Below, piece by piece: positions 33,715 to 34,865 of a stretch of DNA of 64,000 bases (position 1 is the first letter of the stretch; each line of letters opens with the position of its first letter). The translations under genes were made by a program, and so were the position numbers. Under the pieces are notes generated by a model, which saw only the letters and a program-made list of their open reading frames with translations, searched no databases and was not told where the DNA came from. Source of the stretch: Escherichia coli (GTDB lineage Bacteria > Pseudomonadota > Gammaproteobacteria > Enterobacterales > Enterobacteriaceae); NCBI RefSeq assembly GCF_002854065.1, contig NZ_CP024147.1; one strand, written 5' to 3'.

Positions 33715-34587
33715 ATGGATGCACCGAGTACCACACCGCATGATGCAGTGTTTAAACAATTTTTAATGCACGCGGAGACGGCTCGCGACTTTCTGGAGAT
33801 ACATTTGCCAGTGGAATTACGAGAACTTTGTGACCTCAACACGCTTCATTTAGAGTCGGGGAGTTTCATTGAAGAGAGCCTGAAAGGACACAGCACGGAC
33901 GTGCTCTATTCCGTGCAAATGCAGGGCAATCCCGGTTATCTGCATGTTGTGATTGAACACCAAAGCAAGCCGGATAAGAAAATGGCCTTTCGCATGATGC
34001 GTTATTCTATTGCTGCCATGCACCGGCATCTGGAGGCGGATCACGATAAGCTGCCGCTGGTGGTGCCGATACTGTTTTATCAGGGCGAGACCACACCTTA
34101 TCCGCTCTCAATGTGCTGGTTTGATATGTTTTACTCGCCGGAGCTGGCGCGACGCGTCTATAACAGTCCTTTTCCGCTGGTGGATATCACTATCACACCG
34201 GATGACGAAATCATGCAGCACCGGCGGATTGCGATTCTCGAACTACTGCAAAAGCATATTCGCCAGCGCGACTTAATGTTATTGCTGGAGCAACTGGTCA
34301 CGCTGATTGACGAAGGGTACACTAGCGGAAGTCAGTTAGTTGCCATGCAAAACTATATGCTGCAACGCGGTCATACTGAACAAGCGGATTTGTTTTATGG
34401 TGTGCTGAGAGGCAGGGAAACGGGAGGGGAGTCTATGATGACGCTGGCGCAGTGGTTTGAAGAGAGGGGAAGACAGGAGGAAAGGCAAGAATTCGTCCTG
34501 CGTCTTCTGAATAAAGGAATGTCTCGGGAAGACGTTGCAGAGATGGCAAATTTACCCCTTGCCGAGATTGATAAGCTGATTAACTAA
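33715..34587 (+). CDS. rpnC: recombination-promoting nuclease RpnC (YhgA-like, PD-(D/E)xK), allele with alternative C-terminal tail
   Basis: Start taken at ATG 33715 (MDAPSTTPHDAVFKQFLMHAE..., 290 aa); Rpn/transposase_31 family; the C-terminal about 48 aa is paralogous to the downstream orphan ORF. Confidence 0.8.
   Translation: MDAPSTTPHDAVFKQFLMHAETARDFLEIHLPVELRELCDLNTLHLESGSFIEESLKGHSTDVLYSVQMQGNPGYLHVVIEHQSKPDKKMAFRMMRYSIAAMHRHLEADHDKLPLVVPILFYQGETTPYPLSMCWFDMFYSPELARRVYNSPFPLVDITITPDDEIMQHRRIAILELLQKHIRQRDLMLLLEQLVTLIDEGYTSGSQLVAMQNYMLQRGHTEQADLFYGVLRGRETGGESMMTLAQWFEERGRQEERQEFVLRLLNKGMSREDVAEMANLPLAEIDKLIN
34435..34587 (+). CDS. candidate intragenic small protein (RpnS-like) from an internal start in rpnC
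   Basis: In-frame ATGATG at 34435 preceded by a strong Shine-Dalgarno GGGAGGGGAG; would give 50 aa MMTLAQWFEERGRQEERQEFVLRLLNKGMSREDVAEMANLPLAEIDKLIN. Confidence 0.4.
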   Translation: MMTLAQWFEERGRQEERQEFVLRLLNKGMSREDVAEMANLPLAEIDKLIN

Positions 34588-34655
34588 GTTGTCTGCATCA
34601 TCAGTTATAGCCAGATAATTGTTATTGTTAACTGACCAGATAATTAAGGGAACCT

Positions 34656-34865
34656 ATGGAAATAAAGACACGGAGAGAAACCAGGCAGACGTTGGCGCAG
34701 TGGTTTGAAGAGAAGGGATTTCAGAAGGGATATCAAGAGGAACTCCAGAAGGTAAGACAGGAATTCGCCCAGCGTTTTCTAAGTAAAGGGATGTCTCGGG
34801 AAGACGTTGCAGAGGTGACAACTTTACCTCTTACAGAGATTGATAAGCTAATTAACTCTAACTAA
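34656..34865 (+). CDS. free-standing Rpn C-terminal-domain paralogue (orphan tail module, 69 aa)
   Basis: ORF with own Shine-Dalgarno AAGGGA 5 nt before the ATG; shares TLAQWFEE...KGMSREDVAE...LPL.EIDKLIN with the rpnC tail. Confidence 0.55.
   Translation: MEIKTRRETRQTLAQWFEEKGFQKGYQEELQKVRQEFAQRFLSKGMSREDVAEVTTLPLTEIDKLINSN

What the first reader, a model, noticed from the sequence alone, without database searches (positions are those of the whole stretch)
33715..34865. rpnC carries an alternative C-terminal tail, with an orphan copy of the tail module as a separate downstream ORF
The last 48 codons of rpnC and residues 12-69 of the downstream 69-codon ORF are diverged paralogues. They share TLAQWFEE, KGMSREDVAE and LPL.EIDKLIN, but the first copy lacks about 10 codons present in the second (QKGYQEELQKV). 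The N-terminal 242 codons here plus the 58-codon orphan tail add up to the 300 aa I recall for K-12 YadD, so K-12 appears to have the orphan-type tail fused directly. This is the pattern left by C-terminal module displacement, or by recombination between repeated tail modules. As I recall it, the Storz laboratory reported in 2023 that Rpn C-terminal domains are translated separately as small antitoxin-like RpnS proteins that restrain the toxic, phage-defensive full-length nuclease. If so, a free-standing diverged tail could have its own regulatory or specificity role.
Basis: partly seen in the sequence, partly recalled or inferred. Interest (0 to 1): 0.6.

Follow-up and report, generated by a model that had tools for sequence, protein, structure and literature searches.

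The report
rpnC with downstream spare antitoxin gene
The small gene after rpnC is a real second copy of the nuclease's C-terminal antitoxin domain, but it was already described in 2023 as rpnCSs, and about 29% of complete E. coli genomes carry it.

Summary
rpnC (33715-34587, 290 aa) ends in a 48-aa tail that is paralogous to residues 12-69 of the 69-codon ORF at 34656-34865 (63% identity, E 5e-24). The DNA copies are 80-85% identical and 24 nt out of register.

K-12 has one 300-aa rpnC. Its tail, last two codons and 3' flank match base for base an orphan found in another strain, so K-12 is an N-domain/orphan fusion.

The arrangement is already published. Zhong et al. (PNAS 2023, PMC10400941) name the downstream copy rpnCSs. 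They say some E. coli strains have it and that it is lost by deletion or by fusion.

- 1555 of 5426 complete genomes (28.7%) have the two-copy form.
- 3012 (55.5%) have the K-12-type fusion junction.
- 117 (2.2%) have this window's very short in-gene tail.
- Tail modules occur at both positions in mosaic combinations.
- The two copies in one genome almost never have the same helix-1 length (1 of 53 pairs). Random pairing gives about the same, so this is not evidence of avoidance.

Here the orphan has four 4-aa units and the in-gene tail has two. By the published one-unit-mismatch experiment it probably does not neutralise its own RpnC. That step is inference.

The finding is ordinary and already known.

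The parts
33715..34587 (+). rpnC (RpnC-L), 290 aa, a recombination-promoting nuclease with an unusually short C-terminal tail
   Evidence: ORF list. Identical to RefSeq WP_032280263.1 in strain CUWW06. TIGR01784 scores 266.9 bits against a cutoff of 52.1. The exact protein is seen on 73 contigs.
33733..34335 (+). N-terminal YhgA-like / PD-(D/E)XK nuclease domain (residues 7-207)
   Evidence: Pfam PF04754 Transposase_31, E 2.2e-87.
34422..34440 (+). Internal translation start for RpnC-S: Shine-Dalgarno GGGAGGGG (34422-34429), then ATG ATG (34435-34440, codons 241-242)
   Evidence: The sequence is identical to K-12 over this stretch. RpnC-S was detected in K-12 by ribosome profiling and SPA tagging (PMC10400941). 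It was not tested for this strain.
34435..34587 (+). Intragenic small ORF rpnC-S (50 aa): MMTLAQWFEE-RGRQ-EERQ-EF..., with two 4-aa units (34465-34488)
   Evidence: Translation. Alignment with other in-gene tails. This short junction is present in 117 of 5426 genomes.
34588..34655 (+). 68-nt spacer found only in two-copy strains. It holds the orphan's ribosome-binding site AAGGGA (34646-34651). No terminator is predicted in it.
   Evidence: The spacer plus orphan leader is found in 1555 of 5426 genomes. The spacer is 68 nt in almost all of the parsed loci (51 of 53 complete pairs; 65 nt in L022, 43 nt in L018) and its last 18 nt are nearly invariant. No terminator-like site lies between the genes.
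34656..34865 (+). Orphan tail gene (rpnCSs of Zhong et al. 2023), 69 aa: leader MEIKTRRETRQ, then TLAQWFEE-KGFQ-KGYQ-EELQ-KVRQ-EF..., with four 4-aa units (34713-34760)
   Evidence: ORF list. Paralogy to the rpnC tail. TIGR01784 C-terminal positions 213-273, E 2.8e-8. Homologues of 55-89 aa with variable unit number. Named in PMC10400941.
34926..34956 (.). G+C-rich hairpin between the orphan and panC. It was called as the panC terminator on the minus strand and is the first terminator-like structure after rpnC and the orphan.
   Evidence: Terminator scan. Conserved in K-12 and all other loci aligned.

Best explanation
The locus is the published rpnC-rpnCSs arrangement.

rpnC encodes a toxic PD-(D/E)XK nuclease (RpnC-L). 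Its C-terminal helical domain is also translated on its own from an internal start (RpnC-S). RpnC-S acts as the antitoxin by pairing with the same domain of RpnC-L.

The 69-codon ORF is a free-standing paralogue of that domain. It arose when the tail region, from about 30 nt upstream of TLAQ to about 16 nt past the stop codon, was copied and inserted. It lost the internal SD-ATGATG start and uses a new ATG with its own ribosome-binding site. It is probably co-transcribed with rpnC and rpnC-S, because no terminator lies between them.

In this strain the orphan's first helix is two 4-aa units (8 residues) longer than that of the resident RpnC-L and RpnC-S. In the published K-12 experiment a single extra unit abolished neutralisation. 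So I infer that this orphan mostly pairs with itself and is a poor antitoxin for its own RpnC.

Its clearest effect is evolutionary. The two copies recombine with each other. They exchange modules, and deletion between them fuses the N-terminal domain to the orphan body. This gives rpnC a new tail, and with it a new toxin/antitoxin pairing length, in one step. K-12 and about 55% of E. coli genomes carry such a fused allele.

Shown here: the paralogy, the population frequencies, the fusion origin of the K-12 allele and the mosaicism. Shown in the paper: the antitoxin role of RpnS and the specificity set by unit number. Inferred: expression of this orphan, its failure to pair with the resident toxin, and its role as a source of new tails.
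For: Paralogy is shown. The Rpn family assignment rests.

The published description of rpnCSs, of its loss by deletion or fusion, and of the unit-number specificity (Fig. 4D) is in PMC10400941.

Frequencies: two-copy form in 1555 of 5426 genomes, K-12-type junction in 3012 of 5426, this window's short tail in 117 of 5426.

Fusion origin of K-12: the L057 orphan is identical to the K-12 tail from the repeat core through the stop codon into the 3' flank. On its 5' side K-12 keeps the in-gene SNP ACGCTGG.

Other independent fusions: P0096, P0099, P0102 and P0110 have the in-gene MMTLAQ start followed by an orphan-type body with the VRLAQR deletion and the INSN end.

Mosaic modules occur at both positions.

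The orphan ORF is intact in 58 of the 61 loci not cut by a contig end, and two of the three exceptions lie on contigs of about 1-2x coverage (the third, L047, has no coverage figure and its stop lies within 161 nt of the end of the held sequence). Intact orphans also occur in E. marmotae and other Escherichia.

The ribosome-binding site and start region are nearly invariant. No terminator lies between the genes.
Against: There is no expression or interaction data for any RpnCSs. Only RpnESs (YpaA) was shown to be made.

The length mismatch between the two copies (52 of 53 pairs) is no more than random pairing gives: 2.06 matches expected, 1 observed, p = 0.35. So there is no evidence that mismatch is selected.

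The orphan's C-terminal 24 codons have pN/pS 0.66, against 0.18 for the in-gene tail. That would also fit a decaying copy.

PGAP annotates this very ORF as a pseudogene fragment in the identical strain.

The direction of module transfer between the two positions cannot be read from mosaic sequences alone.
Confidence: 0.6

Rival explanations
1. The orphan is simply a second working antitoxin. It is made as a small protein and neutralises the resident RpnC-L despite the different helix length. It adds antitoxin dose or gives a differently regulated supply.
For: It has the same fold family and strongly conserved contact motifs (TLAQWFEE, KGMSREDVAE). It has its own ribosome-binding site and start. 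The analogous RpnESs (YpaA) is expressed in K-12. The ORF is kept intact in almost all strains.
Against: In the published assay a single extra 4-aa unit stopped RpnC-S from blocking RpnC-L. Here the difference is two units. In 52 of 53 sampled genomes the two copies differ in length, and in 14 of 37 haplotypes the orphan is offset by 2 residues from the 4-aa register.
Confidence: 0.2
2. The orphan is an inert remnant of a partial duplication. It is on its way to loss and has no function of its own. The fusions and deletions are just the ways it decays.
For: About 71% of genomes lack it. pN/pS is raised to 0.66. PGAP calls it a pseudogene fragment in the identical strain. No Pfam-A family matches it.
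Against: The ORF is intact and in frame in 58 of 61 loci despite many length variants. It is retained in E. marmotae and other Escherichia lineages. The leader, ribosome-binding site and start are nearly invariant (note that the sample was selected with a leader pattern). The unit number varies as it does in functional RpnS proteins.
Confidence: 0.15

Closest known systems
[quoted passage not shown] 2I and SI Fig. S3C)
   Same: It has the same position (between rpnC and panC, same strand) and the same paralogy to the rpnC tail. It shows the same variation in the number of 4-aa units and the same routes of loss (deletion, or fusion to the N-terminal domain). This locus is an instance of it.
   Different: Nothing differs in kind. 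This allele pairs the shortest in-gene tail seen here (two units, 290-aa RpnC) with a four-unit orphan. The paper, as far as the held text shows, gives no frequencies and no function for RpnCSs.
rpnE-ypaA (rpnESs) in E. coli K-12
   Same: A free-standing copy of the Rpn C-terminal domain sits directly downstream of its parent rpn gene. YpaA was shown to be made.
   Different: It has an independent origin: RpnESs clusters with RpnES, not with RpnCSs. It lies at a different chromosomal locus and is present in K-12, which lacks rpnCSs.
RpnA-S / RpnA-L intragenic toxin-antitoxin pair (RpnAS crystal structure)
   Same: The logic is the same: a small helical C-terminal domain that dimerises through a long first helix and blocks the full-length nuclease.
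   Different: RpnA-S is encoded only inside its gene. Its sequence is too distant for the RpnC orphan, or a profile of it, to find any Rpn chain in the PDB.
EcoR124I / EcoR124II specificity subunits (TAEL repeat number)
   Same: Specificity is set by the number of 4-aa repeats in a helix, and it changes by recombination or slippage between 12-nt repeats. Zhong et al. draw this comparison.
   Different: There the repeat sets the spacing of a DNA target. Here it sets which partner protein can pair.

Membership tests
Rpn (YhgA-like) recombination-promoting nuclease, long form | N-terminal YhgA-like PD-(D/E)XK domain (Pfam PF04754) and a TIGR01784 match above the curated cutoff | tested here: met
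   PF04754 E 2.2e-87 over residues 7-207. TIGR01784 scores 266.9 bits against a cutoff of 52.1.
Rpn (YhgA-like) recombination-promoting nuclease, long form | Internal ribosome-binding site and start codon for a separately translated C-terminal domain (RpnS) | tested here: met
   GGGAGGGG-N5-ATGATG at 34422-34440 is identical to K-12, where RpnC-S was detected. Only the sequence was tested. Translation in this strain was not.
RpnSs (free-standing downstream RpnS paralogue, e.g. RpnCSs, RpnESs/YpaA) | Separate ORF directly downstream of an rpn gene, on the same strand, homologous to that gene's own C-terminal tail | tested here: met
   The ORF at 34656-34865 starts 68 nt after the rpnC stop. It is 63% identical to the tail, E 5e-24. 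It matches TIGR01784 positions 213-273.
RpnSs (free-standing downstream RpnS paralogue, e.g. RpnCSs, RpnESs/YpaA) | Number of 4-aa units in the first helix varies between strains | tested here: met
   The orphan core between WFEE and KGMSRE ranges from 12 to 44 aa across homologues. It mostly changes in steps of 4, and there is also a class offset by 2 residues.
RpnSs (free-standing downstream RpnS paralogue, e.g. RpnCSs, RpnESs/YpaA) | Compact three-helix bundle with a long first helix | tested here: inconclusive
   The AlphaFold2 model has mean pLDDT 69.7, with helices 13-19, 26-43, 48-55 and 59-67. Foldseek against the PDB gave no match with E below 1. Sequence and profile searches of the PDB found no Rpn chain.
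RpnSs (free-standing downstream RpnS paralogue, e.g. RpnCSs, RpnESs/YpaA) | The protein is made and binds or blocks the cognate RpnL | not testable with these tools
   This needs tagging or ribosome profiling and a toxicity or SOS assay. The library search (four terms for the downstream RpnS genes) returned only Zhong et al. 2023 as an Rpn paper, and the passages of it read here report expression for RpnESs but not for RpnCSs.
Pfam DUF4351 (PF14261), the family under which separate RpnS genes are annotated in some species | Significant match to the PF14261 profile | tested here: not met
   PF14261 did not appear among the orphan's hits, the best of which had E 0.033. The in-gene tail matches only weakly (E 0.04). 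Many homologues carry a precomputed PF27070.1 label. That model was not among the hits returned by the Pfam scans here, so it was not tested.

The most novel reading that the evidence does not exclude
The orphan is a standing donor cassette, kept deliberately out of register with the resident toxin. It stays inert towards RpnC-L until recombination, possibly promoted by RpnC itself, swaps or fuses it into rpnC. That resets the toxin/antitoxin pairing length in one step. The result would be tail switching at the population level, driven by phage counter-defence, comparable to silent-cassette antigenic variation. The module mosaics at both positions and the repeated independent fusions are compatible with this. 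The lack of any excess of mismatch over random pairing does not support active maintenance of the mismatch.
Probability: 0.15. Interest if true: 0.55.

Novelty: already known. Interest (0 to 1): 0.2.

Why it matters
The arrangement illustrates how a toxin-antitoxin defence gene can change its pairing specificity. A spare copy of the antitoxin domain sits next to the gene and can be fused in by one deletion.

That idea, and the existence of this spare copy, are already in the literature.
- how common each state is in E. coli,
- a direct sequence match showing that the K-12 allele is a fusion,
- evidence that modules move between the two positions,
- the observation that the two copies in one genome rarely have the same length.

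The function of RpnCSs is still untested. This strain's two-unit/four-unit pair would be a clean test case.

Tried and rejected
- Pfam scan of the orphan: no significant family.
- PADLOC: only a weak RmrA match for the orphan (E 5e-4) and nothing for RpnC.
- PDB searches with the orphan sequence and with a profile: no Rpn chain. The hits were a designed repeat protein and weak helix-turn-helix proteins.
- AlphaFold2 model plus Foldseek against the PDB: moderate confidence and no meaningful match.
- Rfam scan of 33400-35000: nothing.
- Promoter scan: no sigma-70-like site upstream of the orphan. By eye there is only TTGTCT-19-GATAAT in the spacer, which is too weak to call.
- Scan of species-representative genomes with the leader pattern: one hit, on a contig labelled Oscillospiraceae MAG that I did not examine further. 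It was uninformative for deciding which state is ancestral.
- Hypothesis that the two copies in a genome are selected to differ in length: rejected as untestable from these data. A permutation test gave 1 match observed against 2.06 expected, p = 0.35.
- A second rpnC-like partner for the orphan inside the window: none found by tblastn.
- I considered folding a linker-joined orphan/RpnC-S construct. I did not run it, because one job without homodimer controls could not be interpreted.

Full report
**What is in the window.**
The region lies in the E. coli yadE-panD-rpnC-panC-panB block. rpnC occupies 33715-34587 on the + strand and encodes 290 aa. This is the start RefSeq uses in strain CUWW06, which is 100% identical over the 1361 bases compared. 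After a 68-nt spacer comes a 69-codon ORF at 34656-34865 on the same strand. panC follows, convergently, from 34961.

**Check of the observation.**
- The last 48 residues of RpnC and residues 12-69 of the small ORF align with 63% identity, E 5e-24.
- In DNA there are two direct-repeat blocks of 112 nt (85%) and 51 nt (80%). Their spacings, 272 and 248 nt, differ by 24 nt.
- The missing segment in the first copy is therefore 8 internal codons plus 2 codons at the C-terminus, not one block of about 10-11.
- K-12 RpnC is 300 aa with a 58-aa tail from TLAQ onward, so 242 + 58 = 300 holds.
- tblastn finds no further copy in the window.

**Family assignment.**
- RpnC has the YhgA-like nuclease domain (PF04754, E 2e-87, residues 7-207) and passes TIGR01784.
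- The small ORF matches only the C-terminal positions 213-273 of TIGR01784 (E 2.8e-8) and no Pfam-A family.
- Codons 241-242 of rpnC are ATG ATG, preceded by GGGAGGGG. This stretch is identical to K-12.

**What is already published.**
Zhong et al. (PNAS 2023, PMC10400941) showed the following:
- Rpn C-terminal domains are translated separately (RpnS) and block the toxic full-length nucleases (RpnL).
- The first helix carries a variable number of 4-aa units.
- For RpnC, adding one unit (KGIE) to only one partner abolishes neutralisation.
[quoted passage not shown] They name it rpnCSs (Fig. 2I).
- It derives from rpnC rather than from rpnESs.

A library search with four terms for these downstream small genes (RpnCSs, RpnESs, rpnSs, YpaA) returned no other paper on Rpn proteins.

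**Population survey.**
- The spacer plus orphan leader (34588-34700) is present in 1555 of 5426 complete E. coli genomes, 28.7%.
- The K-12-type 3' junction (INLI end plus flank) is present in 3012 genomes, 55.5%.
- The remaining genomes include O157:H7-type alleles. In these an in-gene-type end (…LIN, stop) joins directly to the distal flank, which is a clean absence or deletion of the orphan unit. One strain has an IS1 inserted just after the stop.
- This window's very short in-gene junction occurs in 117 genomes, 2.2%, including O145:H28 strains.

**K-12 is a fusion.**
The alignment includes the orphan of metagenomic contig L057, which has the MEIKTRRETRQ leader. That orphan is identical to the K-12 tail from the repeat core, through the two extra codons and the stop, into the 3' flank. 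On the 5' side K-12 keeps the in-gene variant ACGCTGG, where orphans have ACGTTGG. This places a crossover in the shared GGCGCAGTGGTTTGAAGAG stretch.

Other alleles also begin with the in-gene MMTLAQ but continue with an orphan-type body. That body includes the orphan-specific 6-nt deletion (VRLAQR) and the INSN end. Examples are P0096, P0099, P0102 and P0110. Fusion has therefore happened more than once.

Contigs L050 and L018 show the converse: a K-12-like core at the in-gene position with an orphan still downstream. Tabulating core type, junction type and C-terminal type shows the same combinations at both positions. Modules therefore move between the two sites. The direction of each event cannot be read from these data.

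**Diversity of the pair.**
A metagenome scan with the leader pattern gave 59 loci, and a few RefSeq loci were added. From these I parsed 53 complete pairs in 37 haplotypes.
- The segment between WFEE and KGMSRE is 16-44 aa in the in-gene tail. It is always a multiple of 4.
- In the orphan it is 20-44 aa in the pairs, and 12-44 aa across all homologues. In 14 of 37 haplotypes it is offset by 2 residues.
- The two copies have equal length in only 1 of 53 pairs. Random re-pairing gives 2.06 matches (p = 0.35). The mismatch follows from the high diversity of both copies and is not evidence of avoidance.
- The window haplotype (16 and 24 aa, meaning two and four units) recurs in 6 metagenomic loci besides strain CUWW06, 7 of the 53 pairs counting the window itself.

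**Is the orphan maintained?**
- The ORF is intact in 58 of the 61 loci not cut by a contig end. Two of the three exceptions (L013, L052) are contigs of about 1-2x coverage; the third (L047) carries no coverage figure and its stop lies within 161 nt of the end of the held sequence.
- Intact orphans also exist in E. marmotae and other Escherichia.
- The last 18 nt of the spacer, which hold AAGGGA and the start, are nearly invariant. The sample was chosen with a leader pattern, which biases this.
- Against strong constraint, pN/pS over the C-terminal 24 codons is 0.66 for orphans and 0.18 for in-gene tails. The numbers are small.
- PGAP annotates the ORF inconsistently: as a pseudogene fragment in the identical strain, and as "RpnC/YadD family protein", "hypothetical protein" or "transposase" elsewhere. 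Some gene callers start it at the TTG of codon 13 (P0012).

**Expression signals.**
No terminator-like site lies between rpnC and the orphan. The first hairpin is the one shared with panC at 34926-34956. No sigma-70-like promoter was found in the spacer. Co-transcription with rpnC or with the internal rpnC-S transcript is the simplest reading. This is inferred.

**Mechanism, with shown and inferred steps marked.**
- Shown in the literature: RpnS pairs with the RpnL C-domain through helix 1, and unit number sets specificity.
- Shown here: this orphan has four units (KGFQ KGYQ EELQ KVRQ) against two (RGRQ EERQ) in the resident RpnC-L and RpnC-S.
- Inferred: the orphan is a poor antitoxin for its own RpnC and mainly self-pairs.
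- Shown here: recombination between the copies produces new rpnC tails, as in K-12 and other fusions.
- Inferred: this is the main biological consequence of carrying the orphan.
- The rivals, a plain second antitoxin or an inert remnant, are not excluded.

**What led nowhere.**
- The structure model was of moderate confidence (pLDDT 69.7) and found nothing in the PDB.
- PDB sequence and profile searches did not reach any Rpn chain.
- Rfam found nothing.
- PADLOC gave only a weak RmrA hit.
- The scan of species-representative genomes gave one uninformative hit.

**Verdict.**
The feature is an already described polymorphism (rpnCSs), so interest is low. The open question, also left open by the paper, is what RpnCSs does. 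This strain's mismatched two-unit/four-unit pair would be a good test case.

Noticed in passing
window 34961-36100 (panC, start of panB) compared with 32100-33441 (yadE 3' end, panD): panC and the start of panB are only 93-95% identical to K-12, O111 and four other E. coli strains. panD is 97-100% identical and yadE 97-99%. Identity therefore drops across the rpnC tail and orphan, which suggests a recombination boundary or locally raised diversity. The PanC protein accession of the identical strain is shared with an O157:H7 strain.
   Followed up: partly
window 33715-34014 (first 300 nt of rpnC): The 5' third of rpnC has two diverged forms. It is 100% identical to O111 and 97.7% to K-12, but only 90-92% identical to four two-copy strains (L003, L004, L006, L007). 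The rest of the N-terminal part of rpnC (nt 301-725) is 96-98% identical.
   Followed up: no
window 34588-34655: The 68-nt spacer is absent from single-copy strains, so the two-copy state is not a simple tandem duplication. The spacer contains the direct repeat CCAGATAATT twice (34611-34620, 34636-34645) around an inverted repeat TCAGTTA / TAACTGA (34601-34607, 34629-34635). Its origin is unknown.
   Followed up: partly
L070 (E. coli TUM9868), just after the rpnC stop: An IS1A element is inserted about 16 nt after the rpnC stop codon, where other strains have the spacer or the distal flank.
   Followed up: no
window 34656-34865 and the same ORF in other genomes: Annotation of the orphan is inconsistent. 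PGAP calls it a pseudogene fragment ('missing N-terminus') in the identical strain CUWW06. Elsewhere it is 'RpnC/YadD family protein', 'hypothetical protein' or 'transposase'. Some gene callers start it at the TTG at 34692, giving 57 aa.
   Followed up: partly
window 33658-33714: An in-frame ATG at 33658 would extend rpnC by 19 codons to 309 aa. RefSeq and all compared strains use 33715.
   Followed up: no
L018 (metagenome contig), between rpnC and the orphan: One locus has a 43-nt spacer whose 5' part is unrelated to the usual 68-nt spacer. Its last 18 nt, with the ribosome-binding site, are the same.
   Followed up: no
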